From: a virus
Strand: one strand, 5' to 3'
IMG/VR virus record: IMGVR_UViG_3300012953_000020
Coordinates: 1-64,000 of that record
DNA: 64,000 nt
Shown: positions 16,101 to 61,846 of the stretch, piece by piece
How the letters are laid out: each line of letters opens with the position of its first letter
How positions within the stretch are numbered: the first letter of the stretch is position 1
The notes under the pieces: generated by a model
The model's database searches: none
What the model was told of the DNA's origin: nothing
Seen by the model: the letters and a program-made list of their open reading frames with translations, nothing else
Made by a program: the position numbers and the translations under genes

Positions 16101-16572
16101 TGAAGAAGTTTAAACTGTGGTAATTTGAGAACCCAAAAGACATTGGTTTCTCATATTCTCCCTGGTAAAAGGGGAGCAAGTTCTTTATGAAAACTGATTT
16201 TCTTATCGTGTTTGAATTAAAGCGGTGGGGCATATCGAATTTATAGACAATAAGCTTCTTAGTATTATCTAGAGAGCCCGCAAGCTTTCCTAGATTCGTC
16301 AGGTAGTTCTCCACTAACCCAGCAATGTCGTTTCTAGATCTTTGATCATTCCTAATGACAATCCCAGAGTCGTCTTGGGTCAACAATGACTTTACATCAA
16401 ACGTATACTCTTCCAGTTCGCTAGTGATCTCTTTTAAGGTATCACTTCTTTCCGCGAAAAGAAACACATCACCAGTGATGCCACCAGCCGAAGAAGACAC
16501 AAAGCGCTGGTTGGGGTGAGTCTTTACTGAACTGACTTTTATGTCTTCAGGTAAAATAGGGATTAACGCCAT
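13156..16572 (-). CDS. Putative virion (baseplate/tail) protein with interrupted LamG-like domain and tail-collar-like C-terminus, 1138 aa
   Basis: FSFEFYINP...WSYCAIRW...FYINN...LVIGN followed much later by ELQEVRIFSR. The C-terminus HDENLNVIGKVNLSRPI...FKFKIDY parallels that of the 453-aa neighbour. Confidence 0.7.
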   Translation of the reverse strand: MALIPILPEDIKVSSVKTHPNQRFVSSSAGGITGDVFLFAERSDTLKEITSELEEYTFDVKSLLTQDDSGIVIRNDQRSRNDIAGLVENYLTNLGKLAGSLDNTKKLIVYKFDMPHRFNSNTIRKSVFIKNLLPFYQGEYEKPMSFGFSNYHSLNFFTSSAAHPSNVPSDTALVYPIPTSGSVSEGYRPTRYYTSSSFSFEFYINPRYTTDTAADSYDAGTIMHMPNCYSVSLVSGSHKDEHGRPKSFRLLLQLGNNSVRPPSKVIIPISKDEASGSMSTRTYWSADGFLEKDRWSYCAIRWGGSTQNNYTGSFYINNLHAGDFVIPNTELSRETATISNPNDVPSALVIGNRYKCSNSLSVDDDDLINVVDGSSFNPTVPNTHASGSIKINLTSAGSLAGTRTIFFEEVDGSPTADTVDLNNTRTASQNAAALTSAINGASVDKTLTLGTAAAATLIFTGEIAANNTITVTNTAGLSKTYQAVNDGSFNYTSTSANSKFKRGSTSGTASQKAAIAAASLAAAINTDPAGSYGGHGSTIVATSTGGRLNLTQEVKGTAGNKDIATTPSSITNLTVPDKFTGGLNFINSSLSSILNAQVVDNTQIQLTYEAGRIDLIASSSVRITKEQKAASGSHGNYLTDLFQISSREPVFGNSNSTASKTGFLFDSGSAVRHGTKMLIDAVDMEQEENLTHGFDSPLNAELQEVRIFSRWRSISEIRSTSESGYYNFGDEDFLFYLPPYFVPSSSVRQMLSSVTQTHYSSSYTPFNTDLSFGQGGRLLNLENFSYDFITGEQARCHNLSATEPKGTWSNFSSDDFDFILASEALLIRPENRKRNLTILPSDLGQLKPGMSFLDDRVSLMTTGSSGFFFVNDAGKPAKGMVTLRNMLSLQAQYNELVSFDEETGNVESIQDQLFPPIEVAMPVDADLDGQADIGLISSTKAYGMQSSIGLTVLNRTRDTDSNEIMFLDISNIFYGDSIKYESFQMHDPYVTGSAGKIRLTFKDNGYGALYRCDASGSHPTWSSAGIILYEEGLVCLTNPTIPSFGTQQFVTTFKGDRNLHVLEMRVPISAEEAKISTNPTYQRLSPTDLPADAEIGCNLITNMHMHDENLNVIGKVNLSRPIVRKDEDRYVFKFKIDY

Positions 16573-43432: not shown

Positions 43433-43439
43433 TAAGTAT
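43433..43439 (-). promoter_or_regulatory. Candidate late-promoter motif ATACTTA, overlapping TATAAATA
   Basis: ATACTTATAAATAG upstream of the DUF5659-like gene; includes the T4 late consensus TATAAATA. Confidence 0.45.
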
Positions 43440-46183: not shown

Positions 46184-49100
46184 TTAAAATTCTGAGAATG
46201 GATCGCCGTCGCCGGGACTGAAGATGGAAATCTGTTCTTGTATAATTTCGCTATTTAATCGAACACGACCGCCCTTCCCTCCTCGGCTTGGATGAGGTAA
46301 GTCGAAAAACGGCACTCTTGATCTCTGGTACCTGTCCAGGTTCTGGGAGAACAGGAGATTTAGGGCGCTATTGTTTGTTATCTCGCGGCGAGCTGGATCA
46401 AAAAACCGTGTCTCCACAGTCACTGTCCTGTTATCAGCGCTTATCTCATTATTGTTATTAAATGTACCCTCTACGTTAGTACAAACTGCCAGCTTTCTGC
46501 CCTCTAAAAGATCGCAAAAATAACCAAAGTGGTTTCTTCTAAAAACCACCTTAGGACGAAGATGATCATAATTCATCATTCCGTACTTCACCCCCTTGGG
46601 GTGCTCTAGGGTTTGTCGTGTCTGCTCTGGTAACGCGTTCCAGTTTCCTCCGCCATAGGCATCGCTAGCGGCGGCGGTAAAATTATCCGGAAAACCAACA
46701 CCGTCATGACCAGACATGCTACCAGTGTTTACGGTCATTAAGTTCCTGTTGACCCCTGAACCAAAGCCGAAAAGCAAAGCTGCGGCTTGTCTAAAGCTAC
46801 TGTCATTGACTTGATCAATTTGATCTGTATACACTGGCTGTAAAGTGGCCCCAGACAAGTCTGTTATTTTTATTTTTTGAGTACCAGCGTCATAAAAAGT
46901 GTGGTAAACATCACTATAATCGCCGCCTTGTGTAGCTTTCATAACTGAAACGAGTGTATCTGTATTTAAGTTAGAGCTCTTATCAAAGAATGCAGCAGTG
47001 GCGTTGGTATTTGTTATCGTCAGCTGCTTTTTAACTGTTGGACTTTGGAAGATCTTTAATGTGCCACCAGATTCTTTACCCGCAAAATTATACTTATCGT
47101 CAGAAGTGTTAAGACCAAAGTTCGCAAATTCTTCTGTCTTTGTTAAGTCCCTGTTGTCAGCAGGATCAAAGTCTTCTTCCGCGAATATGTTAACACGGTT
47201 GCCGGCTTCGTCGAAATTATAAGTCTCAAAAATGAAGCGATGTCTCCAATCTGCTACAAATTGACTTTCAAAAGTCGAGATTGGCAGATTGGTCGCGGCG
47301 TCTACGTGATCTTTTGATCTAACAATAACCCTGGTGTTCGTGTGTAGAGATATTGAAGCGTTTTCCTTGCCCTTAACAAATTCAAGATTCAATACGTTTC
47401 TCGTCCCGCCAGAGCTGGCGATACTAGTGACATTAAATATCATAAAATCACCATCGTCGGCAGCGTGGTCCCTAAACTCTATTTGTGTCTCGCCGCCCGA
47501 TACGGCAGCTACAGCACCTCTAACGCTGAGCTGTATATTGGCTAGTTGGCCCATCGTAATAGAAGTAGTCGCTTGAGTTATTGTAGCGCTTGGCGCAGAT
47601 TCCGCAGTATCTGCATACAAACTACCAAGCGTGTCATTGAAGTAAGTGTTTCTCTGCCTGATAGGTGCGCCTATGAATAGTGCAAGATTATTATCATCAA
47701 TGTATGTGCCATTTTCTGTGTGCACCTGCAGTAAGACTGGAGACATTGAGAAATCTGATTGTCGACTACCTGAAGTTAAGAACTTGGTAGGGACAATTTT
47801 CTTCCCTGGTACGTGGGCCGGCATATATTTCGATATATCAACAGGTAAGGAGTCAAAAAACACTAAATCATGATTTTCAGAAATGTTGCTGGAGTCGCCC
47901 TTATAAATTGACATAAAACGATCAACAGAACCGGTTGTAAGTAAAGCCTTAGGGCTACCCCCAACTTCATTAGTCCTAGATCCAAAAGTTATAGTCGACA
48001 CACTTGAGTTAGTCCTTACAAAAGACGTTGGAGAAATAATTTCTGATGCCATAGATCCAGAGAACTCAGAGTCTAATCTAAGCTCATATTGATCATATGT
48101 TTCATCCCCTATCACAGAATACACCACACCGGGGTTTACATAGTCAGTCTTTCTCTTCGGATACCTGGGTACGTTATTCTGGATGTAAGAACCATATAGC
48201 ACTAACTTTGACTGGCTGTGGGGCCCGAAAGTGGTCTCAATGCATTTACCAGTGTCAATAGCTCGAGTTCGGTTGCCGACTGAATGAACCGTTTGTCTGT
48301 TGCCCATATCATCGAGCTGTGGTGGTATTTGACCACCACCTAGATTAACGAAAGAAGGAAAACCAGAATGAAATCCCGGGACAGCTGTTTGGAAACCTAA
48401 AACGATGTCGTCTTCTGGCTCTAAAATGTATGGATTTTCTTCCTCAAAATTTGTCCCAGTTGAAATATCCTCTGTAAAGAAACTCTTATATTGGTCTTTA
48501 GTCGGATCAAACTGGTCAAAACTGTCCAGGTAAAAAGACATTTGGTTAAGTTTAAAGCTCTGGCCGCTAGGAGCGTCGCCAGACACAGTCTTAGCAGCGC
48601 GTGTGCCTCCTAAGCCATCAAAATCGTAACTTCCAATGAAGTTTGCTGTTGGGCTCACATTCACAAATTGAGGTAGTGTGGCTTGTGAAGGATTATCGTA
48701 CTGATCTAAAATCGCGAGGCGATACGGAAAATATTTCGCCAACTTCGGTGTGGTTTTACAGCTCCCCTTAACAGCTATAAGTCCAGAGTGCAAATTGTAG
48801 TTCCCTTTGTACGTATTCGCATGGGAAGTAGCAGTTGCGTGAGAGACAAACCTGATAGCCTGGAGCCCAGCGGGAGCAGTTATACCAGCTAGTGAGCCAC
48901 CAGCGTTGTCAACCAGATCCGTCGTGCCATCCTCACCCTTAAAAGGTCCGGATGATCCTTTTTTTGAATGATTCAAGCTAGAGACCTTTTTAGGTATTGA
49001 AAACTTTAGACCCGTGACAGTGTTACGTGGGCCTTGAGACGAATAAAGAACGTCTACAAATGGATTATCATGAGGATCGGCATCTATCTTGATATTTAAT

Positions 49101-52100
49101 TCACGTCCCAAGCCATTCTCGAGAAGATTTAAACCATTAGAACCAGTCGTTTCAAAGCTGCCGAATACTCCAAGGTGAGGATGCTCCATCGTCTGCTTGT
49201 TAGAACCAGTTGAAGCCGTGATGTGGTCTGTTCCACGGTAATAAAGATGACCAGGATCATTGACGAAGTAATAGTGGCCGAGCTTTCCTGAATTTTCATA
49301 GGCCATCATTGCATAACCGTGATAAGCAACTTGTGAATATGCAATCAACTCACGTGTCGAATTGGTGATTGAGCAGCTCTGAGACGTTATATTGAAACCT
49401 CCTGCCCGAATATAACTTCGGTATTCTTCTTGGCCAGGTGCTGTGTCTGTAGAGGGCGGTCTGTCGATAGTGTTACCGCTGTACACAAATTCTGATGTTG
49501 CGTGAGGACTTGGAGTGGCATCAACGGGCGTGGCATTGGCAAATGGTCTTATAAGGCCAGGGTCGCCGTACCCACCGCTAACACTATGCTCGTAAGCGAA
49601 TGTATTTTGGTATTGATCGCCCCTAAAATCCCTCATACGGTCATCCAGAGTATAATAGAGGTACCTACTTAGATTAGTGTCCTGATTAGACGTTATCGAA
49701 GCTTCCGTCTGAAGATCAGAGCTGCTAAAATCAAGACTACTGACATTATCGATAGAAACTGTAAGGGTGTCAGAAGTAGTTCCGCCCAGTCGAGCAGTCA
49801 AAGAATTTGCAGATATATACGGCAAATTGTCAATAGGGTTTGTATACTCTTGAACAAATTTGATGATCTGTCTAATAGAGAGGAAGAGCTCAAAAATGTG
49901 CGGTTGGTAATAAGGGCCGGCGCCGGCGAACTGTTGATAGACATTTTTAGCGTCAATACCGAAGATTAGACCCTCGCCGCTATAGCGCTTATTAACGTCA
50001 TTATTAATGACGACGGGAGTGGCGGTATCGTATAAAATACCACGTCTCAGCATGCCGAACCATGCCGCGTAGTCGGCACCGGTGGTAGCTGCACCCACCG
50101 TCGGCCCATCAAGAAAGCTATCAAAGCCTCGGGACGTCACAATGTAAATACGTATCTTATGAGGAATTTCCCTTACTTTCACGTTTGCAGACGTGGTTTC
50201 AACAGCCAGATTTGTGATATTAGAAACTGCCGCAGATCCTGTATTGGCGTTTGTTTCTGACAAGTATATACGCTGTATTCCAGAAGCTTCACTGGGCACT
50301 GCGCTTACCACAAGTTTGTTATTGTGACCGTTAGAGTGTACAATTGCCTCCCTAAGAAGTGTAAGAACGCCATGTTGGGTTGGAGGAGACGATGAAAAAT
50401 CAAATCCAACTGCGATTCCTGTCGCTCCGGAAGTAAGCGTGGCGGTAGTGGCGGGGCTGGAACCATTACTTTTAAGTGTTTGACCAGCCGTGACAGTAGC
50501 CAAGTGCGCCCGACCACCATCACCGGTGTCCGATATAAAATAGTCTACGACCGTGCCGTCTGCAGAATTGATAGTGATTTTTTGCCCGGCGGTCATTCCA
50601 TGGGCGCCATCACCATCAGTCACTTTTAATACTGCATTCATGGTACGTAACGCAGTGAAGACATTGCTGTATGTTACACCGGCGTGAGCTTCCGAGGCAG
50701 GAGTATTATCACCGGCCTCTGGGGTGCTCGAATATATGTTAGACAGCTCGGCAGAGCCAGGAAAGCCAGAACCAGCGGAATATATACGGTACTTTCTGCC
50801 CTTGATAATAGAGTTCTTGATAAAGGGGTCAAATGCTGGACTGTGAGGCGTTATTTCTAGATACGGTAGATTGGTGTCACTTGTAAAAGTCCTAAGCCAA
50901 ATGTTTATGTGGGCATCAGTGGCGGAACCAAAGAAGTGCCCGAGTACCGCGGTGGGGTTAGGCCATGCAATGTAGTCAATAAGGTACGGGTGGCCATAGA
51001 CCTCGTATGTTTTCGGATGAGTCTCTGGAACAAGTCCAGAAAACGCGCTTTGACCATCAGCGAACACCTGCAAGTACATTCGTCCACCTGTAGGACCGGT
51101 CAACGCGTCTAGCGCTGTTGATTTAACTGCACCGGGTATCGGGACAGAGAATGTTGTGTCGACGCAGGGTTTCTCACGCATTAAGAAGAAAGTATCACAG
51201 CGCCAGAAAGCAGAGCCCTCGTTAGTCGTAGCGTTAGAGGTATCACCAGACGTAAGATAACCCGTGAACTGATCATCTCGATTGTAAATATTACCACCGA
51301 CCCTGTGATATGCTCCTTCTTTTTCAAGCCGCTCCTTAGTAAAAGATGTGAGGCGGTTACCATGATTGCTATAGCTGTTTGTTAACAAAGCGAAAGGTTG
51401 CGTCCTGTTGGTATGAGGATAAAACCTCTCGTATAATCGCTGAGCTTCGATATTCCTGAATCTATCGTCGTATAACCCCATGTAGCTAATTAGAGATGAT
51501 GATTTAGAACTATCAGTGTTGGAATAAGTTACGCCGTTAAGGTTTCCATAATTGCTAAATGGTAAATCGTCAGAAGTCTCAGGTAAGATACGAGCAATAC
51601 CTTCTTGAACTTCATCACGAATTGAAGAGCTACAGATTATCTCAAATTTCTCTAGCATGAACGGTCCGTCTAGATAATTAGACAGGTTTAATCTCTGACC
51701 GTCGGACGGCTTAAAGGTATCAGAGAAAGGAAAACCAAAGCTTGAGATAGGGCGCGCGCGGAGGGGCAGTTCCGCGTAATGCAAGTCGTTAAAATCTGTG
51801 CCTCTATTTCTATCATTTTCAGCCGTATGGATACCCCCTACAAAAGATGTATACTTACCAGCAAAATCTTCTGCTTCAGCGCCGGTAAAAGTTTTTTCCA
51901 TAGTGAGTGTCGCGTTGGCGACAACATCGTCAGAGCCATTTCCAAGAAAAACCTGCGGGAATATTGAGACTTGATCATGATAAAAATCGATCACCAATTC
52001 GCCATCATTTCCAGACCCAGTGTTTGAAACTTCAACCCCTGAATTATTGGCGATAATAGCTTTCATCACATTGTCGTATGTAGCCTTCGCCGAGCTGCTA

Positions 52101-55100
52101 TCTACCACTACAGTGACAATTCGGCCTGATATAGCGCCAGTAGTACCGCTGACAAAGAACCTGTATTGAGTCTCTGATTTACCAGGGTTACCATAGCCAT
52201 CGCTTGTTCCATCTAAAACAACACAGATGCGCTGGCCCGAGTTGGGATTACCTACATATTTGAGCTTATATCTTACTTTAGCGTGGCCGGTGATCCTGAG
52301 GGGCTCGATCGTATTGTAAATTCGCTGATTACCCGCTGCGCCCGGTAATACTTGCTCTAGCTTAAGTGGAGTTTCCTTTAGAGGATCCACTATACCATAA
52401 TCTGTTATATCAGACGTTGAAACAGGAGCACTCACGTTAGTTGAATAATTTAAGTCTGGCACCAGCGTTGCGACCTTAGCAGAAGGGCCTACTTGGCTGT
52501 CTAGTGTGTACACCCTGTACGTTCCCGGACTCACATAAAAGTATAGTCTGGTGCCTGCATCGTAAGAGCGACCAAAGGCGATCTCAAAGGTGACAACCAG
52601 ATTAGAGTTGACTACAAAACCGCTGGGACTTCCGGAAGCTGTTAAGCTAACAATAGAACCCCACGTTGACTTTTGAGTATCAAGAGGTAGGGTACAGTTT
52701 ATTTTGTCCGTATGCCCGACAGATATCGCGCTCTTTAACTGAAATAGTAGGCTCTGATTGTTGACTCCAGAAGTGGTTGTGGTAAGAGCAACTGCCACTG
52801 CGCCATTTTTTGCTGTTACGACAGCCGACGTTCCAAATCTATCCACAGCGGCCCCATCTACGACAGTGGCGCCAGTGGAGAGAGTTGTAAAATCGTCTCT
52901 ATCAACGAAGACGTAGTCTTTAGTCGTCCCATCAGTCGATGTCAATTGGAGCTTGTGACCAGCTGTGATTTGTCGGCCGCGGCCGGTGGTGCCGATCCTC
53001 TTAAATGATTCCATATCAGCTCTAGCAAGAGACCCGCCAGATATACCTGCGTTATGCTTGGAACGAGTGAAGGGCACCACCACAGATGTACCACCAGCGT
53101 ATGTTCCCATCGCTATCTCGACGTAGTGTTGGGTAGAATCTTTTTTTATCTCTATCAATGTACCTGAGGGGTTGGCAGAAGCGAAATCGCTGGCTGCTGA
53201 AGCGTCAGCAAAAGTTAAATTTCCGCTAGATCCAAAGGTCACACTGGCTGGTGAGGCCGCCAGCAAGGAGGCACCTGAACCTAAAGTGTTACTATGCGTT
53301 TCAGTTAATGAGAACGCGCTACCACTTACATAGGAAATATAAGCGCAGGCTAGTCCTAGGACGTCTTTACGATGAATGCTGAAACCATAGGTACCTCCAA
53401 ATCCGATAGGGGCTCCGTCTTGAAATGCTGCAACTGCATCAATAATGGCTTGGTTACGTGTAGTACCAGCTGCCGCAGCTGTCCGGTCTGTCTCAATCTT
53501 TGGGGAAAATGTCGACTTTGTAATGGACTCCCACTTTTTATCTGCAAAATTGAAATAGCCCATTGGATTATAGTTTGCAACTGCAAAGCCGTCAGAGGTT
53601 GCGTCAGCTGATCCTGTTGTGAAGCCAAGTGTGGTCTTTTGAGATGGGTTTATGTCGATTTCTATTCTAACTCTATTACGAGTGCCGGCATTAAACCTGC
53701 TAGCAGAACCTGATAGGACTGAGCCGGCAGCAAAGTAAGACAGAGCGATGTCCATCCTATCATCATCTACAAAGGGCTTGCTGATGGTGAGACTCGGTTC
53801 CCTGATAAAAAGTGACTCTCTAGCCGCTAAAGAAACATCTGGGTTCAACATCAAATTGAAACCAGTGATATCGAACAGGAAGCTAGACGGGCTTTGTGTA
53901 CTAGTCCCGTATCCAATAAAGTTTACACGACTTACACTGGCATCCGGATCGTTAGGAGTCAGTGTAATAACTGCGTTGTTAGTGCTAACTTCTATCGGTA
54001 AATTATCTTTAGCTACTGAGTCTGCTATTGAGTTTGCTAGGGAAGTCGCTAAATCAGAACTTGATGTTAAGTCGGACGTCCCTACGTTATATCGATTAGA
54101 CGAAGCCATGGTTAGCTTAGAGTCTAGTCTAGCGCTGTATCTAATACCTTGTACTACGAAACTTATAATAGGCTTAAGAGGAGTATTATTATCCTTGTAG
54201 CTGCGCGGCTGATTTTGCACATCCACGAATTGTCTATTAATATCACGTTCAGCAGTAGGGTCTGATAGTAAATTTTCTATATATTCTTGATCTACCGCAG
54301 AGCCCTCTATGAAATTTTGTAACCCGGTAGCGCTACACTCTATGGTAGCTTTAACATCTTCAGCTACCTTACGACCGACGACTATTTTCTTATCTCGTGG
54401 TGTAGAAGAAAAGTCAACCAATCGAGGGTCCGGTGATTTTAGTCCTGACATTCTCAAGTCTGAGACGGTTATGTTGGAAGCTGGGCTACTGGAAACAACA
54501 CATAAGGATGTAGGGGCCGGTTGTATCAAACAAAAATCAGCACGCTTTCCAAACTCATTGTCTGAAGAAGGGTTCTCAGTTATTGTAAGCGATTTACCGA
54601 AGTCTGGGATTAGCGTCATACTGGCTTTATTGGAAGAACCGCCGTTGTTGATCGCAGTTATGCCGAAACTAGAGACAGCGTTTATTTTTGCGACTAGCTC
54701 AGCGACAGCCAGAGTGGCGGCTCGGTCAGTACCAATACCCACTTTATCAGAGTCTGCATGATCTAAATTGTCTCCGGAGCCAGCTGCGGTCGTGTAACTA
54801 GAAGTAGCAGTCCCATTAGATATCTGCAGTACTTGTGACGTTGGGATATTACCTGTATCGAAGGTGTTGTTAAAAGTTACCACTTTTGCAGAACTGTTAT
54901 ACTCGCTACTTGCAGATCCGGCAGCTTGATACTCGATCTTAATTGAATTAAAAGAAAGTCTAGAAACTTTAACAGGGATCCCTGAATATTTTCTGATCTT
55001 ATTTAGCAAGCCTTGCAGCTGATCTACAACAGCGGTTTGAGTTGACAGACTGTTTATACCACACCCAAACCTAGTGGCAGCTGCAACGGGTGCCTTAATG

Positions 55101-58100
55101 TTGCTAGAATCAGTTATGACGCTGGTGTTATTGTCTAGCGTAAAACCGTCAGCGGTAGTAGTTGTTGTGTCAAAAACTACCTGGAAATCCCTTCCGTCTG
55201 GAAGGCGCATGCTAAAAGCTGAATCGTTTACCGGCATGTCAGAAAAAGTAAATACTACAGATCCTGTCACTCCTGTCGGCATCATGTGCGGGTAGGCGAC
55301 ATCAACAGAAGCTAACTGATCGCTGAGTAAATCATCTTTAAATGGTGAATATGAATCCCCAACGATATCGAGTTCCCTAAACTTCCTTTCCAGAAATTTC
55401 TTGGGTAAATCAGATTTGAACCCTGATTTTGTCCTCAAGAGTAGGTGAGACTCAGCGATCTTAGAAGCTTCATCTTGTGATAACTTCCTATCCAGTATAC
55501 TCAGCTCTGCTAGGTTGAAGTTATTATAGAAACTGGCAGCATCGGCGTTTTGCTGCGGTGAGGTGCCGAAATTTGTCGCGACGCCAGAAGTTTTGCTTCC
55601 ATAGCCTATAAATAGTCGAGGGTTAATAGATCCCAAGCTATCCTCTGCGTTTTGTGCTCCAGCAGGCGCTGAACCGACTGAAGAGAAAGTAGAATGTCCA
55701 ACTTGTGCACCGTGATTTTCAGAATCATAAAGTGCCATGAAATTAGTTTCGTCGCTGTAATCGAAACCCGCCTCACTAAACGCGATTACCAGCGTGTACC
55801 ACTTATCTAGTGGGAGACCTATGGCGTTCCTGTCTATGGTCGCATTCCAATAAGTACTGTCTGCCACGTCGCCATCAGGACGTAGTCTAAACTCAAATTT
55901 AGTCTTGTCTGCCTTTAGGTAATACCTCGCTTTTGCGCTGGTGCCGCCGCCAGACATGGTGAATATCACACCATCTGTCCCAGATACCGGCTCGTTGTTG
56001 TAGACGCGGACTATGATTGTCTTATGACCTCTTGCCTTTAAACCAGCTGAGCCTTGTGTCATACCGGCAGCGCTGCTAAACCCTCCGCTGAAACCGCTTA
56101 ACCCAAGATTGCTAATCTTGGATGTCATATCAGTTGATCCTGATTTAAAAGTAATTGTTCCTGGGCCGCCTTCTGCTACAGGTATGTTAGTGATCAGTGT
56201 GTTACCAGCAGCTTCACCAAAATTACCGCTATTTGTATTAAGTGCATCCTCAGTGACAGTGACAGTAGCCCCAGTGCCACCCTCGATGTTAAGGGAAGCG
56301 TCAGATGCAGTATTACCTGCGACCACTGTAGCTGTGACATTCATAGTAGCATTAGCGTTGATTCTGGTGACCATGTGACTCACGACATTGTCGTTGGTGT
56401 TGCCACCGCCTACGTCGATGCCATAAGCGAAATTTAAATGGCTTACGCTAGCGCTAGTAGAGTGCTCTTGAGTGCTGGCAAGACTCTTGAAAGTGATATA
56501 ATGCCGAACATTTGCACCGAAAGAAGCTGTCTCGTCGGATCCATATTCGTCAACGTTGAAAGGGTGTGCTATGACTGTCGCCTTGAGTCGAGCAGCAAGC
56601 GTTTTTACGTCGTTGGCGCCTTGAATACCGATTGTAGTGCCTGAAGTGGAAGTTGTCGCGTCACTAAACGTGAACGTCACTAAAGTGTTACTTGAATCTC
56701 TTAGCGTAAGCGTCTTTCCGTGCAAATCGCTTATTGTAGTACCCGCCTCTATGTATACAATAAGCTGCTTGCTGTCCAAATAATTGACAGCAGCGAAGTC
56801 TATATAATTTGTGCCGTCGCTGATTCTTAAGCGAGGAGCATTACCACCATTATAACTACCGAAAGCCCCCATTCCGAACTCGCCTCCAGTCACAAACCTG
56901 ACTCTCTTTCCGCCGGCGGTGGCTGCGGACTCAAACGCTTCTGAGGTCCTTAAGACAAGACTTATTTTACTGTCTCTTAGAGTCGTCCCATGTAGAACCT
57001 TTTTAGGAGTAGGACCAACAACTGCAGCGCCTATGTATTGTCTCTTGGTCAGTGTTCCATACTCAGAGGGGCTTGAGCTAGAGGTTCCTGACGCTGTAGA
57101 GTTTAGCGCGTCTAGTGTAAGGACTGCTACATCTTGGTCCTTGAGTATACCAGAAGCTGTTCGGTATACATAGTCAACGCTGCCAACAGTGAAGTAAAAA
57201 GCTTGACCTGGTTTATAAAACTCTGGAAATGAAGAAGCCCCAATAGACAGTGTTATGCTACTATCACCATATTGCTGGCCAGCTTGAAGGCTTAGAGTGC
57301 CCCAAGAGCTCAACGCGGTTTTGGTAGACGTCTTTACGTGACCTCCTAAAGTGGGTTTGGAAATAGCAGACTTTAGATTATCAAAAAAGCTTAAATAATT
57401 AGTATTCTTGTCATATCGAACAACAATATCACCTATGCGATAATCATTTGCAGATACTGTCGAGACCCCATCGTAAGCATTAGCCACTAAAGGCTGGCCG
57501 GTCTCTGGTATATCATAAATCGGATCAGGAAACTCAGCTGAAGTAAATTCAGCAGAAATAAAACCCTCGCTATATGCTGTGCCTGAAACCTCTAAAGAGG
57601 CGTGAGTTTCAGCGCCGGTGCTCTGCACAATTATTTCAAACGCCTTCCTAAAGCTAGTAGATCCTAACGGTGTAATTTCTACAGGCGTTGAAGCGGGGGC
57701 ACCGGGCTGATGATTGATAACGGTAATAGTATCACCGGAAAGCGTAGTATTAAATGCGGCGTTGGCACTTACATCGTCGGATGCTCCTGACTCGGGTCCA
57801 TGAATGTATGAAAACGGCAGATCTTCTATTATGCCATCCAAGACAGCGGCAACTCGAGTGGCAGATAATGTCACATCATCAGTGTCTGTGACAGCACAGA
57901 ACCCAGCGGTCTTTCCGAACTGGCCGTCGCCGTGCTCGGTAACAGATATTGTTCTTATCGATAGATCACCTGTCCGTCTGGTTTTGGGTTGTAATATCAG
58001 GCTAGCTGCAGTGTCCCCCCCTGTAAAGACACCATTGGACGCCGCTGAGGCTGAGCCAACCGTGGTGTTAGCAAGGTTACTTGTTACCGTGGTGTTACCT

Positions 58101-61100
58101 GCAGAGCCTTTAGCTTTTTGAGTTATCGTTATAGCAGCCCCAGACACTGCGCTCACTGTGACCAACGAAGCTATGGTACTTTGTTCAATGGCAGATTTCA
58201 GTGCGATAGCAGAAGAGGTGCTTGAGCCGGCAACAGAAAAAAGTGTAGCGCTTGTTGTGCTAGCATGAGCAGTAATCGTTGCTGAAGTGGTGGTCGAAGC
58301 GTCAGCGTTGAGAGCAACAATCGTGATTGCGTTACCTGCCGTTGGAGTATTAGAGAAAGTAATTGTTACTGAAGCCGCTGAAGAGGCTCCTACATCAAGT
58401 GCAATAACGTCCAAATTGCTGGCGTTAATTTTCCTCACAAACTCGTCCACCACGACATCAGATGCTCTAGATGTACCAACACCAATTTGAGTGTTAGACG
58501 ATGCGTCTGCACCTCCCGATGTGGTCGCTGTAGTGTACGTAACTGTTGTTGCCCCGTCCGAAATGACTAGAGTATCGCCCGGGTCTATATTACTTGACGT
58601 AAAGTTACCAGTGAACGAGACTGTCTTGGCACCTGCAACTCGGACGGCGGTGTGGCCGTCGGAAGTTGCAGCAGAAGCAGAATTTGTTACCTCTAGCTTG
58701 TAGATATTATTTAGTTTGTCTACCAGATGTATTTGTTTCCCGTTTGCTTGGGTAATTGTCGGGCACTTGACGGTAAAGCGCATGTAAGATTTGTCAATAT
58801 CTAACCTTAGAGACTCTTCAAAATCGCCTGAGTGAGTTAAGATATTGCTTAGTGTCCCCGCTGCAGAGCTGGCTATACTGGCCATTATCGCGCTCTTTAA
58901 GTTAGCGACGGTGAGGGTGGCTAATCGGCTTGCAGGAATGGGTACAGTAACATTAGACGTGTCTTGACCTGAGATTGAGCTAGCTGATTCGCTAAAGGTA
59001 AATGTCACAGTTGTGTTTGTGAGATCAGTCAGCTTCAGCTGCTTACCGGTTGTTAAATTAGGATTATCTACAAACAGGGTAGTTGAGTTTTGGGAGTTAC
59101 TAAAGCTAGCGCAAGATTGCTGTCTCCTCACTGGGTCAGGGAAATAAACAGGAGAAAATTTCTGAGCGTTACTGGGGATAGCTATACTCTGCGTCAGCCC
59201 AGATGTCACGGTCACAAGGCTTGTTTTTTGTTCAAGCTTTATATAAGAAAATGTATCTGTCTCATTAAAGACAGATGCGCTAACGTTCAAATCAGAGTCT
59301 GCGTTTATTAAGTCTGTTATGTTGTTTGCTGCAGTGGGGACCGTGTTATCATAAGCCAGCCGAGTTGCGCTGTAGATGGTGAATATCTCTGAATCTGTTA
59401 GGATTGAGTTCCAGATCGCGAATTCAGCAATTTTTCCCTGGAAGGCCCTCGTACCGTTATGGCGGTTACCTATACAGGCTGCTTCAGTGTTAGAGCTAAA
59501 ACCGACGTATGTGCCTAGCGGTTCATCTATCTCATCCGGATTATCAGTAATTAATACACCGTTGATATACATTCTGGGGTTGTTGGCGATATTATTGGCA
59601 TCGTAAGTAACGACTACGTGATGCCAATTGTTATCTAGATTAGCTACTGCGGCTGGGGTTCTCCAGTCACCGTATGATGAGGACCACTTTGTATAGAAGC
59701 CGACTTTGTTATTATTTGCAGTTCCGTCTTTAACAATATAGACGAACATGTCTCCGCCGATGTCAAATATCCTGGGATAATTACCGGTACCGTTACCTGT
59801 TACGTAAATCCAAGCAGAAATAGATACCTTTTTTGTGGTGCCAGAAGTAGCGCCCACTATAGCGCTCCACTGGCTGGCGGTCCCTACATTCACAAAGTCG
59901 TTGCCGCCTATGAAGGTATAAGCTGGGTGATTTTTATTCCCAAGCGTGTTAGATGTAATCTTCAATGATAGATCGTTAACGCTATATGACGGAACTATGG
60001 CTGTGGCAGATCCAGTAGCCGTCAAAATTGTTCCGAGCCGTACATATTTCTGCAAACTTTGATCTGAACGATAGGATGACATGGGTCTAGCATACAGCTC
60101 ATGAACTTCATCAACAGTTAGAACCCTTTTCCAGAAACCGAAATCAGCGTAAAGACCTTTTAGGTACCTAGTAGCAGCGTTAGATCCGTAATCGGTTCCA
60201 AGGATTGTCTCATTAACAGTCGCTCCAGCTCCACCAATAGCGACTGTTTGAATAGTGCCGGCAGCTGCTGTGACAGTAGTGGTCGAGGCAGCCCTGCCGT
60301 TTACGTAGATAATTGGTATATTTGAAGCGCTGGTTCCATCGTAAGTGATCGCGATGTGAATCCAGCCGGGAGTCTCGTAGCGAGATGTTGCAGTGGACGT
60401 TTCGTCTGCATGAGAAGCGTTCGCAATGCTGACAATAGATTCTACCGTTCTCACCACCAGATCAGTAGTCGACCAACTCCTGTGGAACTCTAACTTTCCG
60501 CTAATGTCAGATTTTGATCTGATTCGGATGGCATACTTACCCGCCTGAGTACTAAAAATTGTCTGAATATCACTACTGTTGGTGGCTGAATCAGACGGGC
60601 TTTGGTTTGAATGCGGTCTAACCCAGCAAGAGAATGTCGATATGTGTCCTGAGCTTGCCCCTGAAATTGCGTCCCATTGAGTTCTTGTTCCCATGGAGAG
60701 ATGCTGGTGTGTATCAATAGCAGTGTCAAGGGAGCGGCGCCACATATTGTTATGAGCTGCCGGCAATATCGCAGGAACGGACTGATCTACAAACGCATTC
60801 GTACCATGACTGGTATCGTTATAAGCGAAAGCCAGCGTTTCAGTACCCACGTTGGCTGGAGAAGCCGAGAATGTACCTATCCAGACTTTGGCATCCTTAA
60901 TCAGGTCATAGCTTCCAGAAGCATAAGCTTTCTCGTATGTAGAAGGAGCAGCAGAACCTGTTGGTAAATAGTTAGCTCGGGCAGCAAGATTATAACCGGC
61001 GTTTGGGATAAACGCGCTAAAGGCAGAGCCCGTTGCGAAAATAGTAAAGGCCGCTGAATCAACTTTGTACTGTCTTCTAGTGGGTGAAGAATCAAAATCT

Positions 61101-61846
61101 GCTATAGAAAATGAAAAGTCAGCATTTCTACCGTCATCAATCCCAAAGTATTTTCCGTTAGCCGGGGATATGCCACTCTGCAAGGACAACCTCTGAGTTG
61201 ACGGCTGAGCTCTGTCTTCATAAAAAAGAGAAGAATAATTCTTGACTATGTCTCCGTCATCCGATGTCGGGATTGTTATAGATAGCCTTGACCCAGAAAT
61301 TTCGTTCCTTCTAAATGGTATAGAGCTGCTGACACAAAGCTCTGCTATATGGGGTGCAGCAGATAGTAGTTCTAGAGATCTAGGGTTGTATCTGGTAAGA
61401 ATCTTAGAGCTAAAATTCTCTGGTTGATACATGAAAAAATAGTTAGCTACAAAACTCTTTCCATCAACCGTAACCTGTTTGCTTATGAACGGAGAAATAT
61501 TAGAAAGAAAATTCGAATACTGCACAGACATATTGTCGACGTTGTTCGGGACAGAATCTGCATCTGATGATGCGGATACAATATACGTGTTCATAGCCCC
61601 ATCAGATCCAGATGCATTGAAAACTAGACTTGACTTAACACCTTCTATCTTTTGAAATTTTTGGTTAATAAAAACGATGTTGTTTAATCCATCGTCCTCT
61701 AGATATCTATTCTGTACTGCGTCGTCAACAAATCGATCAAAGACAAAGTTTGCTATGACGTTTCGACTAACGTTTATTCTGCCTTCTCGATGCTGAACAT
61801 CAGCTAGTAGGTCTGGTACAATTCTCTTCTTTCTGCTATCAAACAT
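46184..61846 (-). CDS. Giant putative virion protein, 5220 aa, with LamG domains and many inserted modules
   Basis: 15.6 kb open frame. LamG-like domains at about 60090-60700 (FSCWVR/WIHIAITYDG/YVNG/GLYADFGFW), 59370-59920 (ISAWIY/WHHVVVTYD/YING/GKIAEFAIW) and 55450-56030. Repeated Ser/Thr/Gly-rich modules. Confidence 0.85.
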   Translation of the reverse strand: MFDSRKKRIVPDLLADVQHREGRINVSRNVIANFVFDRFVDDAVQNRYLEDDGLNNIVFINQKFQKIEGVKSSLVFNASGSDGAMNTYIVSASSDADSVPNNVDNMSVQYSNFLSNISPFISKQVTVDGKSFVANYFFMYQPENFSSKILTRYNPRSLELLSAAPHIAELCVSSSIPFRRNEISGSRLSITIPTSDDGDIVKNYSSLFYEDRAQPSTQRLSLQSGISPANGKYFGIDDGRNADFSFSIADFDSSPTRRQYKVDSAAFTIFATGSAFSAFIPNAGYNLAARANYLPTGSAAPSTYEKAYASGSYDLIKDAKVWIGTFSASPANVGTETLAFAYNDTSHGTNAFVDQSVPAILPAAHNNMWRRSLDTAIDTHQHLSMGTRTQWDAISGASSGHISTFSCWVRPHSNQSPSDSATNSSDIQTIFSTQAGKYAIRIRSKSDISGKLEFHRSWSTTDLVVRTVESIVSIANASHADETSTATSRYETPGWIHIAITYDGTSASNIPIIYVNGRAASTTTVTAAAGTIQTVAIGGAGATVNETILGTDYGSNAATRYLKGLYADFGFWKRVLTVDEVHELYARPMSSYRSDQSLQKYVRLGTILTATGSATAIVPSYSVNDLSLKITSNTLGNKNHPAYTFIGGNDFVNVGTASQWSAIVGATSGTTKKVSISAWIYVTGNGTGNYPRIFDIGGDMFVYIVKDGTANNNKVGFYTKWSSSYGDWRTPAAVANLDNNWHHVVVTYDANNIANNPRMYINGVLITDNPDEIDEPLGTYVGFSSNTEAACIGNRHNGTRAFQGKIAEFAIWNSILTDSEIFTIYSATRLAYDNTVPTAANNITDLINADSDLNVSASVFNETDTFSYIKLEQKTSLVTVTSGLTQSIAIPSNAQKFSPVYFPDPVRRQQSCASFSNSQNSTTLFVDNPNLTTGKQLKLTDLTNTTVTFTFSESASSISGQDTSNVTVPIPASRLATLTVANLKSAIMASIASSAAGTLSNILTHSGDFEESLRLDIDKSYMRFTVKCPTITQANGKQIHLVDKLNNIYKLEVTNSASAATSDGHTAVRVAGAKTVSFTGNFTSSNIDPGDTLVISDGATTVTYTTATTSGGADASSNTQIGVGTSRASDVVVDEFVRKINASNLDVIALDVGASSAASVTITFSNTPTAGNAITIVALNADASTTTSATITAHASTTSATLFSVAGSSTSSAIALKSAIEQSTIASLVTVSAVSGAAITITQKAKGSAGNTTVTSNLANTTVGSASAASNGVFTGGDTAASLILQPKTRRTGDLSIRTISVTEHGDGQFGKTAGFCAVTDTDDVTLSATRVAAVLDGIIEDLPFSYIHGPESGASDDVSANAAFNTTLSGDTITVINHQPGAPASTPVEITPLGSTSFRKAFEIIVQSTGAETHASLEVSGTAYSEGFISAEFTSAEFPDPIYDIPETGQPLVANAYDGVSTVSANDYRIGDIVVRYDKNTNYLSFFDNLKSAISKPTLGGHVKTSTKTALSSWGTLSLQAGQQYGDSSITLSIGASSFPEFYKPGQAFYFTVGSVDYVYRTASGILKDQDVAVLTLDALNSTASGTSSSSPSEYGTLTKRQYIGAAVVGPTPKKVLHGTTLRDSKISLVLRTSEAFESAATAGGKRVRFVTGGEFGMGAFGSYNGGNAPRLRISDGTNYIDFAAVNYLDSKQLIVYIEAGTTISDLHGKTLTLRDSSNTLVTFTFSDATTSTSGTTIGIQGANDVKTLAARLKATVIAHPFNVDEYGSDETASFGANVRHYITFKSLASTQEHSTSASVSHLNFAYGIDVGGGNTNDNVVSHMVTRINANATMNVTATVVAGNTASDASLNIEGGTGATVTVTEDALNTNSGNFGEAAGNTLITNIPVAEGGPGTITFKSGSTDMTSKISNLGLSGFSGGFSSAAGMTQGSAGLKARGHKTIIVRVYNNEPVSGTDGVIFTMSGGGTSAKARYYLKADKTKFEFRLRPDGDVADSTYWNATIDRNAIGLPLDKWYTLVIAFSEAGFDYSDETNFMALYDSENHGAQVGHSTFSSVGSAPAGAQNAEDSLGSINPRLFIGYGSKTSGVATNFGTSPQQNADAASFYNNFNLAELSILDRKLSQDEASKIAESHLLLRTKSGFKSDLPKKFLERKFRELDIVGDSYSPFKDDLLSDQLASVDVAYPHMMPTGVTGSVVFTFSDMPVNDSAFSMRLPDGRDFQVVFDTTTTTADGFTLDNNTSVITDSSNIKAPVAAATRFGCGINSLSTQTAVVDQLQGLLNKIRKYSGIPVKVSRLSFNSIKIEYQAAGSASSEYNSSAKVVTFNNTFDTGNIPTSQVLQISNGTATSSYTTAAGSGDNLDHADSDKVGIGTDRAATLAVAELVAKINAVSSFGITAINNGGSSNKASMTLIPDFGKSLTITENPSSDNEFGKRADFCLIQPAPTSLCVVSSSPASNITVSDLRMSGLKSPDPRLVDFSSTPRDKKIVVGRKVAEDVKATIECSATGLQNFIEGSAVDQEYIENLLSDPTAERDINRQFVDVQNQPRSYKDNNTPLKPIISFVVQGIRYSARLDSKLTMASSNRYNVGTSDLTSSSDLATSLANSIADSVAKDNLPIEVSTNNAVITLTPNDPDASVSRVNFIGYGTSTQSPSSFLFDITGFNLMLNPDVSLAARESLFIREPSLTISKPFVDDDRMDIALSYFAAGSVLSGSASRFNAGTRNRVRIEIDINPSQKTTLGFTTGSADATSDGFAVANYNPMGYFNFADKKWESITKSTFSPKIETDRTAAAAGTTRNQAIIDAVAAFQDGAPIGFGGTYGFSIHRKDVLGLACAYISYVSGSAFSLTETHSNTLGSGASLLAASPASVTFGSSGNLTFADASAASDFASANPSGTLIEIKKDSTQHYVEIAMGTYAGGTSVVVPFTRSKHNAGISGGSLARADMESFKRIGTTGRGRQITAGHKLQLTSTDGTTKDYVFVDRDDFTTLSTGATVVDGAAVDRFGTSAVVTAKNGAVAVALTTTTSGVNNQSLLFQLKSAISVGHTDKINCTLPLDTQKSTWGSIVSLTASGSPSGFVVNSNLVVTFEIAFGRSYDAGTRLYFYVSPGTYRVYTLDSQVGPSAKVATLVPDLNYSTNVSAPVSTSDITDYGIVDPLKETPLKLEQVLPGAAGNQRIYNTIEPLRITGHAKVRYKLKYVGNPNSGQRICVVLDGTSDGYGNPGKSETQYRFFVSGTTGAISGRIVTVVVDSSSAKATYDNVMKAIIANNSGVEVSNTGSGNDGELVIDFYHDQVSIFPQVFLGNGSDDVVANATLTMEKTFTGAEAEDFAGKYTSFVGGIHTAENDRNRGTDFNDLHYAELPLRARPISSFGFPFSDTFKPSDGQRLNLSNYLDGPFMLEKFEIICSSSIRDEVQEGIARILPETSDDLPFSNYGNLNGVTYSNTDSSKSSSLISYMGLYDDRFRNIEAQRLYERFYPHTNRTQPFALLTNSYSNHGNRLTSFTKERLEKEGAYHRVGGNIYNRDDQFTGYLTSGDTSNATTNEGSAFWRCDTFFLMREKPCVDTTFSVPIPGAVKSTALDALTGPTGGRMYLQVFADGQSAFSGLVPETHPKTYEVYGHPYLIDYIAWPNPTAVLGHFFGSATDAHINIWLRTFTSDTNLPYLEITPHSPAFDPFIKNSIIKGRKYRIYSAGSGFPGSAELSNIYSSTPEAGDNTPASEAHAGVTYSNVFTALRTMNAVLKVTDGDGAHGMTAGQKITINSADGTVVDYFISDTGDGGRAHLATVTAGQTLKSNGSSPATTATLTSGATGIAVGFDFSSSPPTQHGVLTLLREAIVHSNGHNNKLVVSAVPSEASGIQRIYLSETNANTGSAAVSNITNLAVETTSANVKVREIPHKIRIYIVTSRGFDSFLDGPTVGAATTGADYAAWFGMLRRGILYDTATPVVINNDVNKRYSGEGLIFGIDAKNVYQQFAGAGPYYQPHIFELFLSIRQIIKFVQEYTNPIDNLPYISANSLTARLGGTTSDTLTVSIDNVSSLDFSSSDLQTEASITSNQDTNLSRYLYYTLDDRMRDFRGDQYQNTFAYEHSVSGGYGDPGLIRPFANATPVDATPSPHATSEFVYSGNTIDRPPSTDTAPGQEEYRSYIRAGGFNITSQSCSITNSTRELIAYSQVAYHGYAMMAYENSGKLGHYYFVNDPGHLYYRGTDHITASTGSNKQTMEHPHLGVFGSFETTGSNGLNLLENGLGRELNIKIDADPHDNPFVDVLYSSQGPRNTVTGLKFSIPKKVSSLNHSKKGSSGPFKGEDGTTDLVDNAGGSLAGITAPAGLQAIRFVSHATATSHANTYKGNYNLHSGLIAVKGSCKTTPKLAKYFPYRLAILDQYDNPSQATLPQFVNVSPTANFIGSYDFDGLGGTRAAKTVSGDAPSGQSFKLNQMSFYLDSFDQFDPTKDQYKSFFTEDISTGTNFEEENPYILEPEDDIVLGFQTAVPGFHSGFPSFVNLGGGQIPPQLDDMGNRQTVHSVGNRTRAIDTGKCIETTFGPHSQSKLVLYGSYIQNNVPRYPKRKTDYVNPGVVYSVIGDETYDQYELRLDSEFSGSMASEIISPTSFVRTNSSVSTITFGSRTNEVGGSPKALLTTGSVDRFMSIYKGDSSNISENHDLVFFDSLPVDISKYMPAHVPGKKIVPTKFLTSGSRQSDFSMSPVLLQVHTENGTYIDDNNLALFIGAPIRQRNTYFNDTLGSLYADTAESAPSATITQATTSITMGQLANIQLSVRGAVAAVSGGETQIEFRDHAADDGDFMIFNVTSIASSGGTRNVLNLEFVKGKENASISLHTNTRVIVRSKDHVDAATNLPISTFESQFVADWRHRFIFETYNFDEAGNRVNIFAEEDFDPADNRDLTKTEEFANFGLNTSDDKYNFAGKESGGTLKIFQSPTVKKQLTITNTNATAAFFDKSSNLNTDTLVSVMKATQGGDYSDVYHTFYDAGTQKIKITDLSGATLQPVYTDQIDQVNDSSFRQAAALLFGFGSGVNRNLMTVNTGSMSGHDGVGFPDNFTAAASDAYGGGNWNALPEQTRQTLEHPKGVKYGMMNYDHLRPKVVFRRNHFGYFCDLLEGRKLAVCTNVEGTFNNNNEISADNRTVTVETRFFDPARREITNNSALNLLFSQNLDRYQRSRVPFFDLPHPSRGGKGGRVRLNSEIIQEQISIFSPGDGDPFSEF

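What the first reader, a model, noticed from the sequence alone, without database searches (positions are those of the whole stretch)
52388..57310. The same module families are shared between non-homologous genes (fibre gene and giant protein)
Seen: giant protein 52994-53303 (ETHSNTL...SSGNLTFADASAASDFASANPSG...MGTYAGGTSVVVPFT) matches insertion 5 of the 1675-aa gene (DTHGGNL...AAGNITFDSASNAAAFATAFPAT...IGTYAGGSAVVVPFT). 52388-52669 (STWGSIV...FGRSYDAGTRLYFYVSPGTYRVYTLDSQV) matches insertion 1 (GTWGTSI...WGVAYPAGTRFYISDSSGKIYVYSLNAAV). 57045-57310 matches the outer part of insertion 3. The host proteins otherwise look unrelated, so the modules appear to move between genes within one genome. 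No transposase, intein motif or reverse transcriptase is visible in the window.
Basis: partly seen in the sequence, partly recalled or inferred. Interest (0 to 1): 0.8.

Follow-up and report, generated by a model that had tools for sequence, protein, structure and literature searches.

The report
Plug-in domains shared by phage virion proteins
Two families of small folded domains turn up, in frame, in unrelated tail and baseplate proteins of an uncultured marine T4-like phage and its relatives, gained and lost as clean units; this is a well-documented new case of the known way phage virion proteins grow, not a new mobile element.

Summary
All three stretches of the 5220-aa protein (G) are homologous to inserts 5, 1 and 3 of the 1675-aa fibre protein (F).

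They form two families:
- Family A is about 80 aa.
- Family B is about 90 aa and is predicted to be a six-stranded all-beta domain.

Profiles built from copies in one host class find the copies in the other class at 1e-8 to 1e-14. Noise starts at about 0.02-0.06.

The hosts are otherwise unrelated, and vertical inheritance is excluded. Orthologous giant proteins of related phages have clean empty sites for each G module. One relative carries module A inside a LamG domain instead. F's tandem paralogue lacks every insert.

Gain and loss both occur. An outgroup fibre has A at the insert-5 site, so the short paralogue probably lost it.

Nothing points to an active element:
- No reverse transcriptase, transposase, homing endonuclease or intein was found on the 90.9-kb contig.
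- No terminal repeats or DNA similarity link the copies, and synonymous sites are randomised.

The best reading is a set of promiscuous accessory surface domains spread by rare recombination and then selected. The closest precedents are the Ig-like domains and carbohydrate-binding modules of other phages. The families themselves are new and seem confined to this clade.

The same scan noted this phenomenon before on this genome.

The parts
46184..61846 (-). G, the giant 5220-aa virion (baseplate-region) protein. It hosts one A and two B modules and has two LamG domains near the N-terminus.
   Evidence: ORF, translation, Laminin_G_3 6.6e-22. Full-length orthologues: g1 5186 aa, P0010 4349 aa, L019g 3611 aa. 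The gp25 baseplate wedge gene lies upstream in the same gene block.
57047..57319 (-). B-family module at 'site C' of G (aa 1510-1600). It is the uninterrupted counterpart of the outer part of F insert 3.
   Evidence: Present in G and g1 and cleanly absent in P0010, with conserved flanks. AF2 model pLDDT 81.9, six strands. A contig from another study bridges it (record 27).
52976..53305 (-). A-family module of G. The core is aa 2848-2930; aa 2851-2957 is the block missing from the orthologue g1.
   Evidence: phmmer 4.5e-9 to F insert 5. Cross-validated profiles. Empty site in g1 and L019g, present in P0010.
52403..52678 (-). B-family module at 'site B' of G (aa 3057-3148), counterpart of F insert 1.
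   Evidence: Present at the same site in g1 and P0010; the region is absent from L019g.
36012..41039 (-). F, the 1675-aa fibre-like protein. It is the scaffold shared with F2 plus six inserts.
   Evidence: 66% identity to F2 over the scaffold, with clean insert boundaries.
40584..40859 (-). F insert 1, a B-family module (aa 61-152).
   Evidence: 2.4e-9 with a profile built from giant-borne copies only. Absent from F2 and from the outgroup fibre P0008.
38967..39560 (-). F insert 3 (aa 494-691). A B-family module (aa 497-546 plus 642-691) is split by an unrelated 95-aa inner piece (aa 547-641; 39117-39401).
   Evidence: joined score 127, z 14. The hmmsearch hit comes in two pieces. The split falls in the turn between strands 3 and 4 of the B model.
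37137..37451 (-). F insert 5, an A-family module (core aa 1197-1275; indel against F2 aa 1202-1301).
   Evidence: The same site is occupied by an A module in the outgroup fibre P0008.
36249..36677 (-). Two tandem A-family modules inside F insert 6 (aa 1455-1531 and 1527-1597).
41126..42994 (-). F2, the 622-aa tandem paralogue of F, without any of the modules. It serves as the natural empty-site control.
   Evidence: It has no hit to the A or B profiles.

Best explanation
The three stretches of the giant protein and inserts 1, 3, 5 and 6 of the fibre protein are copies of two families of small, self-folding accessory domains. Family A is about 80 aa, with a predicted order of strand-strand-helix-strand-strand-strand. 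Family B is about 90 aa and is predicted to be a six-stranded beta domain whose nearest, weak structural neighbours are small beta-barrels.

In a clade of uncultured marine T4-like phages these domains are spliced in frame into loops or inter-domain linkers of otherwise unrelated tail and baseplate proteins.

Shown:
- The copies are homologous across host classes.
- The host proteins are unrelated outside the modules.
- Presence and absence are clean at each site among orthologues and paralogues.
- The same family occurs at different sites: a fibre loop, a giant-protein linker, and the inside of a LamG domain.
- Tandem duplication and one nested insertion occur.
- Both gain and loss occur.
- The events are old.

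Inferred:
- The copies arose by rare illegitimate or short-homology recombination of domain-sized DNA segments. This could happen within a genome or between co-infecting relatives during the recombination-rich T4-type replication.
- In-frame products that fold and help the virion were then kept by selection. No dedicated mobility enzyme is needed.
- The domains are tolerated because they fold on their own and sit on the surface.
- Their most likely job, by analogy only, is extra low-affinity binding to host surface polysaccharide, as for the carbohydrate-binding modules and Ig-like domains of other phages.
For: Homology:
- Shuffle tests give z 13.6, 8.7 and 7.6.
- The pairs are reciprocal best hits in the contig proteome.
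- Cross-validated profiles between host classes score 1e-8 to 1e-14, with noise starting at 0.016-0.06.
- The A profile searched against 1.84 billion representatives returns only giant-protein orthologues and F-like fibres, plus two partial repeat hits.

Insertion and deletion as units:
- F and F2 are 66% identical, with clean gaps at the inserts.
- Alignments of G, g1 and P0010 have conserved flanks and empty sites at site C (P0010), site A (g1) and the LamG site (G, P0010).
- Module A sits inside the second LamG domain in g1 and P0003.

Polarity:
- The giant-protein tree is ((G,g1),P0010),g19.
- P0008 is an outgroup fibre that has A at the insert-5 site but lacks insert 1.

Autonomous fold:
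- The AF2 model of B has pLDDT 81.9 and pTM 0.74. The model of A has pLDDT 68.5.
- The nested piece of insert 3 lies in a hairpin turn of the B model.

Age, and no element:
- F insert 5 and G_A share 47% nucleotide identity, and third bases of identical codons match in 11 of 32.
- No DNA repeats link the modules or mark the junctions.
- GC3 of the modules lies within the host-gene range.
- No reverse transcriptase, transposase, integrase, homing endonuclease or Hint domain was found in any ORF.

Precedent:
- Carbohydrate-binding modules occur in four different structural proteins of lactococcal 936 phages and are described there as common 'bricks' (PMC6669499).
Against: - The function is pure analogy. 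No fold search gave a carbohydrate-binding, Ig-like or any other clear match. The best Z values were 4.9 and 5.7, to generic small beta-barrels.
- The A model has only moderate confidence.
- The recombination mechanism is inferred from the absence of alternatives. No recent event with preserved DNA junctions was found, so microhomology could not be assessed.
- The module trees are poorly resolved. Donors and the number of transfers are therefore unknown, and some presence/absence patterns could be differential loss.
- The contig is a fragment, so a mobility enzyme encoded elsewhere in the genome is not excluded.
Confidence: 0.75

Rival explanations
1. This is an active in-frame mobile element. 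The modules would be cargo or ends of a cassette that is still moved between virion genes by a dedicated enzyme, such as a homing endonuclease, a recombinase or a retroelement. Alternatively they would be intein-like protein-level elements.
For: - The same family occurs at several non-homologous sites, with empty sites, tandem copies and nesting.
- In the A tree, F insert 5 and G_A of the same genome pair with 86/89 support, rather than G_A pairing with P0010's copy at the same site.
- The contig is incomplete, so an enzyme could be encoded elsewhere.
Against: - The modules are 75-107 aa, too small to encode an enzyme.
- No Hint/intein, homing endonuclease, reverse transcriptase, transposase or integrase domain was found in any ORF of the 90.9-kb contig.
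- There are no terminal repeats or shared DNA at the junctions.
- The copies have saturated synonymous sites.
- No module-skipping joints appeared in four marine runs, although cover was thin.
- The A-tree pairing rests on one long branch in an 81-column alignment.
Confidence: 0.07
2. The pattern is differential loss only. An ancestral, heavily decorated set of virion proteins carried all the modules, and today's patchwork reflects repeated clean deletions with no transfer between genes.
For: - Loss does occur. A at the insert-5 site is shared by F and the outgroup P0008 but is missing in F2.
- Site A is present in G and P0010 but absent in g1, which lies inside that group in the tree.
Against: - Loss alone cannot place one family in unrelated host folds: a fibre scaffold, a giant-protein linker, and a loop inside a LamG domain.
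- It also cannot explain one module sitting inside another.
- Insert 1 is absent from both F2 and P0008. The LamG-site copy is confined to g1 and P0003. Both patterns look like gains.
- At least two duplicative insertions into new contexts are needed under any scenario.
Confidence: 0.1
3. The similarity is a chance or compositional artefact of Ser/Thr/Gly/Ala-rich proteins, or an assembly artefact.
For: - F is 17% Ser and 12% Gly.
- Composition-adjusted whole-protein BLASTP gives only E 0.002 to 0.09.
- Two borderline database hits (P0007, P0009) are unrelated repeat proteins.
Against: - Shuffles that keep the composition give z 7.6-13.6.
- Cross-validated profiles separate members from noise by six or more orders of magnitude.
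- Independent orthologues carry the same modules.
- The DNA copies are only 47% identical, so assembly could not have confused them.
- The source run covers G without differences, and contigs from three other studies match at 95-100%.
Confidence: 0.02

Closest known systems
Carbohydrate-binding modules decorating lactococcal 936/Skunavirus virions, including 'evolved' Dit (Hayes et al. 2019, PMC6669499)
   Same: One module family appears in several non-homologous structural proteins there (neck passage structure, major tail protein extension, Dit; abstract read). From my own knowledge of this literature, not read here: the module is inserted in frame into a loop of the host domain in 'evolved' Dit, and some phages carry it while close relatives lack it. 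The authors interpret the modules as common 'bricks' that add host binding.
   Different: Here the folds are small domains with no detectable relation to known carbohydrate-binding modules. The hosts are T4-type baseplate and fibre proteins of marine phages. Density is far higher, with six inserts in one fibre, nesting, and a 5220-aa host. Binding is untested.
Promiscuous Ig-like domains (I-set, FN3, Big_2) on tailed-phage structural proteins (Fraser et al. 2006, J Mol Biol; cited from my own knowledge, not read here)
   Same: These are small accessory beta domains scattered over unrelated virion proteins. Their distribution among relatives is patchy. They are thought to spread horizontally and to give weak binding to surface carbohydrate.
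   Different: Ig-like domains are mostly appended at termini or added by frameshifting, and they are widespread across phages. Families A and B are inserted internally, and they appear confined to one clade, with only about 8 true hits among 1.84 billion representatives. No Ig-like match appeared in the fold searches.
Mosaic T-even distal tail-fibre adhesins (gp37/gp38 segment swapping and duplication; Tetart et al. 1996, 1998; cited from my own knowledge)
   Same: Both involve T4-type phages, recombination-driven exchange and duplication of short coding segments in fibre genes, and host range as the likely selective force.
   Different: Those exchanges are between homologous genes at homologous positions, guided by conserved motifs. 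Here whole folded domains land in unrelated proteins, and no guiding DNA motif was found.
Inteins and homing-endonuclease-associated insertions
   Same: These are also in-frame insertions with empty-site alleles in relatives.
   Different: No Hint or endonuclease domain was found. The modules are too small and have no splice-junction residues. The insert is kept as part of the mature protein family, and the copies are ancient.

Membership tests
Promiscuous accessory domains of phage virion proteins (the kind that includes Ig-like domains and CBM 'bricks') | The same domain family is present in non-homologous structural proteins. | tested here: met
   A and B occur in the fibre family (F, P0005, P0006, P0008) and in the giant-protein family (G, g1, P0010, P0003). 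Cross-validated profiles score 1e-8 to 1e-14. The hosts are unrelated outside the modules.
Promiscuous accessory domains of phage virion proteins (the kind that includes Ig-like domains and CBM 'bricks') | Presence and absence are discrete among close homologues of the host protein, so the domain is dispensable. | tested here: met
   F against F2. G, g1 and P0010 at three sites with conserved flanks.
Promiscuous accessory domains of phage virion proteins (the kind that includes Ig-like domains and CBM 'bricks') | The domain is compact and folds on its own. | tested here: inconclusive
   AF2 from 5-sequence alignments gives B pLDDT 81.9 and pTM 0.74, and A pLDDT 68.5 and pTM 0.58. These are predictions only.
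Promiscuous accessory domains of phage virion proteins (the kind that includes Ig-like domains and CBM 'bricks') | The fold belongs to a known Ig-like or carbohydrate-binding class. | tested here: inconclusive
   There is no Pfam or PHROG hit. Foldseek against PDB and BFVD gives nothing at E <= 0.001. The best VIA Z values are 4.9 (A) and 5.7 (B), to small beta-barrels including the phage Carin-1 tail chain 8ck1_A 586-673.
Promiscuous accessory domains of phage virion proteins (the kind that includes Ig-like domains and CBM 'bricks') | The domain binds host cell-surface carbohydrate. | not testable with these tools
   This needs purified modules and the unknown host.
Inteins | A Hint domain with splice-junction residues, typically 130 aa or more. 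| tested here: not met
   No Hint or intein family appears in the Pfam scans of G and F. The modules are 75-107 aa, and their junctions vary between copies.
DNA mobile elements (IS/transposon, homing-endonuclease cassette, retroelement/DGR) | An element-encoded or nearby transposase, endonuclease or reverse transcriptase. | tested here: not met
   Pfam scans of the ORFs of the 90.9-kb contig found none. The contig is a fragment, so absence from the whole genome is not shown.
DNA mobile elements (IS/transposon, homing-endonuclease cassette, retroelement/DGR) | Terminal repeats, target-site duplications or conserved DNA ends. | tested here: not met
   The junction sequences of all F inserts against the F2 empty sites show none. 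The repeat scan of 36-62 kb finds only F/F2 scaffold blocks.
Laminin_G_3 / ConA-like lectin domain (context: a host domain in G and its orthologues) | A Pfam PF13385 match above the gathering score. | tested here: met
   G scores 6.6e-22 at 78.7 bits against a cut-off of 27.6, in two stretches. The 2266-aa neighbour scores 1.9e-23.

The most novel reading that the evidence does not exclude
The phages of this clade might have a directed way of copying domain-sized coding segments in frame into surface loops of virion genes. It could work through recombination hot-spots at module borders, or through an enzyme encoded on the unsampled part of the genome. That would make these 'plug-in' domains a true protein-domain-level mobile system rather than the residue of rare accidents.
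Probability: 0.07. Interest if true: 0.85.

Novelty: new member of a known kind. Interest (0 to 1): 0.45.

Why it matters
- It is an unusually clean natural record of how giant phage virion proteins are built. There are empty and filled sites for the same small domains in a paralogue pair and in several orthologues, insertion into a linker, into a fibre loop and into the middle of a LamG domain, tandem copies, and one domain inside another.
- It defines two previously undescribed domain families and a set of insertion-tolerant sites. These could guide engineering of phage fibres, and they help explain proteins of 4000-5000 aa in marine T4-like phages.
- It does not reveal a new mechanism. The principle of shared accessory 'bricks' on virions is established.

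Tried and rejected
- **GenBank phages:** megablast of 36-58 kb and tblastn of two G segments found nothing. Two earlier tries were out of frame.
- **Word-based protein searches:** the A and B profiles with 'longer' lengths returned only F itself. This is weak evidence of rarity.
- **IMG/VR pattern scans:** the scan with A3 could not be run because no conserved stretch was available. The scan with A4 found only the g1 contig.
- **PDB by sequence:** only pentraxins matched, for the LamG domain. Nothing matched F.
- **PHROGs:** no hit for G or F.
- **ESM Atlas for module A:** all scores were under 0.85 and are not used.
- **Fold searches of both models:** PDB by Foldseek, about 48,000 chains by VIA, and BFVD gave no clear match.
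- **hhalign of A against B:** no relation. Both models do rank the same Carin-1 domain among their weak hits.
- **Recent gene conversion between F insert 5 and G_A:** suggested by the shared C-terminal motif and by the A tree. Rejected, because third codon positions are randomised.
- **Module composition:** GC and GC3 are not distinct from the host genes.
- **Laying contigs of four marine runs on G:** no joint skips a module. Cover by the three independent runs was thin and patchy around 52.4-53.3 kb, so this says little.
- **P0007 and P0009:** these are partial, repeated matches in unrelated repeat proteins. I do not count them as members.
- **The inner 95-aa piece of insert 3:** no significant relative was found.
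- **The motif LKLEQ-x9-[KR][IL]YN:** shared by F, F2 and P0008 with G and P0010, but not significant (iE 0.63).
- **Module trees:** too poorly resolved to name donors.

Full report
**Setting.** The window is the first 64 kb of a single 90.9-kb viral contig. All long genes lie on the minus strand.

The contig is a distant T4-type phage, on this evidence:
- The large terminase is 43% identical to that of Microcystis phage Mel-JY01.
- It has a T4-like portal and prohead protease, SbcCD-like nucleases and gp25 baseplate wedge.

The finding lies in a block of very large genes downstream of gp25: 2266, 1253, 5220 (G), 902, 622 (F2), 1675 (F), 1088, 918 and 2737 aa. Near-identical pieces occur in marine metagenomes from at least three other studies.

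Composition-adjusted BLASTP of the whole proteins is only marginal. Module-level tests are not:
- Smith-Waterman z-scores against shuffles are 13.6, 8.7 and 7.6.
- Each pair is the reciprocal best non-self hit in the contig's 48 proteins.

The match of 57045-57310 to the 'outer part' of insert 3 is real. F 497-546 and 642-691 align collinearly with G 1513-1600 once the 95-aa inner piece is removed (score 127, z 14). The C-terminal half independently chooses the end of insert 3 as its best place.

**Two families, tested without circularity.**
- Family A comprises F insert 5, two tandem copies in insert 6, and G 2848-2930.
- Family B comprises F insert 1, the outer part of insert 3, G 3057-3148 and G 1510-1600. 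A copy from a related phage (g1 site C) bridges all of them.

A full HMMER search of the A profile against 1.84 billion representative proteins gave ten hits. Eight are either orthologues of G or F-like fibres, and two are partial matches in unrelated repeat proteins.

An A profile built from fibre-borne copies alone finds all four giant-borne copies at 5e-13 to 3e-9, with noise from 0.016. The reverse also holds. A B profile built from giant-borne copies alone finds F insert 1 at 2.4e-9 and insert 3 at 1.7e-8, with noise from 0.06. Chance and composition are therefore excluded.

**The hosts are unrelated and the modules are indels.** F is the tandem paralogue of F2, 66% identical over the scaffold, plus six clean inserts. 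F2 has no similarity to G.

Orthologues of G were recovered:
- g1, 5186 aa, about 48% identical, in a syntenic block of a 188-kb viral contig.
- P0010, 4349 aa.
- P0003, a fragment.
- L019g, 3611 aa, more distant.

Alignments with well-conserved flanks show the following:

| Site | Present in | Absent from |
|---|---|---|
| Site C (B module) | G, g1 | P0010 |
| Site A (A module) | G, P0010 | g1, L019g |
| Inside the second LamG domain (A module, about 125 aa, before the last strands) | g1, P0003 | G, P0010 |
| Site B (B module) | G, g1, P0010 | L019g |

One family thus occupies a fibre loop, a giant-protein linker and the interior of a lectin-like domain.

**Gain and loss.** The giant proteins give the tree ((G,g1),P0010),g19. 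On that tree, site C looks like a gain, and site A needs either a loss in g1 or two gains.

P0008, an F-like fibre about 30% identical to both F and F2, carries module A at exactly the insert-5 site but has no insert 1. The short paralogue F2 therefore probably lost insert 5, while F gained insert 1. Deletion is as clean as insertion.

Other fibres carry two or three tandem A modules (P0005, P0004). The single fibre gene of the g1 phage carries a module of the insert-2/insert-4 family.

**What the modules look like.** AF2 with five-sequence alignments gives:
- Family B: a six-stranded all-beta domain (pLDDT 81.9, pTM 0.74).
- Family A: strand-strand-helix-strand-strand-strand (pLDDT 68.5).

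Fold searches find only weak neighbours, all small beta-barrels: the F1-ATPase crown domain, the HerA barrel and several phage tail proteins. Residues 586-673 of the Carin-1 phage tail chain 8ck1_A rank high for both models (Z 4.4 and 5.7). This is a lead for a common fold, not an assignment.

The inner piece of insert 3 interrupts the B domain in the turn between strands 3 and 4. That is where an inserted domain would be tolerated.

**No sign of an active element.**
- Pfam scans of the ORFs on the contig found no reverse transcriptase, transposase, integrase, homing endonuclease or intein.
- The junctions of the F inserts show no terminal repeats or duplications against the F2 empty sites.
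- A repeat scan of 36-62 kb finds only the F/F2 scaffold blocks and nothing linking module copies.
- F insert 5 and G_A share 47% nucleotide identity, and third bases of identical codons match in 11 of 32, which is close to random. The pairing of these two copies in the module tree is therefore not recent conversion.
- Module GC3 lies within the host range.
- Contigs of four marine runs show no form that skips a module, but cover was thin.

**Interpretation.** The evidence fits promiscuous accessory domains that are duplicated, inserted, nested and deleted as units by rare recombination, then retained by selection on virion surface properties.

The closest documented parallel is the set of carbohydrate-binding modules found in several non-homologous structural proteins of lactococcal 936 phages, which the authors describe as shared 'bricks' (PMC6669499). 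The Ig-like domains of phage structural proteins and the mosaic T-even adhesins are further parallels; I cite those from my own knowledge.

The binding function here is inferred only by analogy and from the company of LamG lectin-like domains. The recombination mechanism is inferred from the lack of any element signature.

The families are new to Pfam, PHROGs and the PDB, and seem confined to this clade. The principle is known, so I rate this a new member of a known kind.

Earlier notes of this scan on the same genome describe the same phenomenon. I used them as leads and re-tested the parts that bear on this finding.

Noticed in passing
window 37448-37682 vs 41635-41869; 38580-38691 vs 42086-42197: Some F/F2 scaffold blocks are 86-88% identical at the DNA level, while the scaffold averages 66%. 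This mosaic similarity suggests gene conversion between the tandem paralogues, and it stops at the insert borders.
   Followed up: no
window 52343-52396 (G aa about 3151-3168) and 36930-36990 (F aa about 1350-1370): A short motif, LKLEQ-x9-[KR][IL]YN, is shared by F, F2 and P0008 with G and P0010. It lies just after the B module in G. It is the top non-self hit of a fibre profile but is not significant (iE 0.63).
   Followed up: partly
window 46184-61846, 13156-16572; contig 61839-74299 (L033): G shares further module families with the 2266-, 1253-, 632- and 1138-aa proteins. These include LamG domains and a repeated unit of about 100-150 aa with a helix ending in 'AI..' (BLASTP 1e-33 to 1e-5). 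Module sharing is therefore general in this gene block.
   Followed up: partly
G002:C1:19133-21259 (L019/L031-L032), 709-aa protein: The orthologue of the window's 902-aa gene (43439-46147) in a related phage carries an inserted unit that is 54% identical to G aa 1812-1888. The 902-aa protein itself lacks it. This is another host class for a shared module.
   Followed up: no
G001:C1:33056-35839 (L030), 928-aa fibre: The related phage has a single F-like fibre gene instead of the F2+F pair. It carries a module of the insert-2/insert-4 family (7.5e-19) but no A or B module.
   Followed up: partly
contig 81909-90606 (L034): A sugar-nucleotide and glycosyltransferase cluster lies directly upstream of the baseplate genes. 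It includes GDP-mannose 4,6-dehydratase, an epimerase/reductase, a cytidylyltransferase, several GT4 enzymes and a PD-(D/E)XK nuclease.
   Followed up: no
PDB 8ck1 chain A residues 586-673: The A and B models, which are unrelated by sequence, both rank the same small domain of the Carin-1 phage tail protein among their best weak structural hits (Z 4.4 with 23% identity, and Z 5.7). The two families may share one fold.
   Followed up: no
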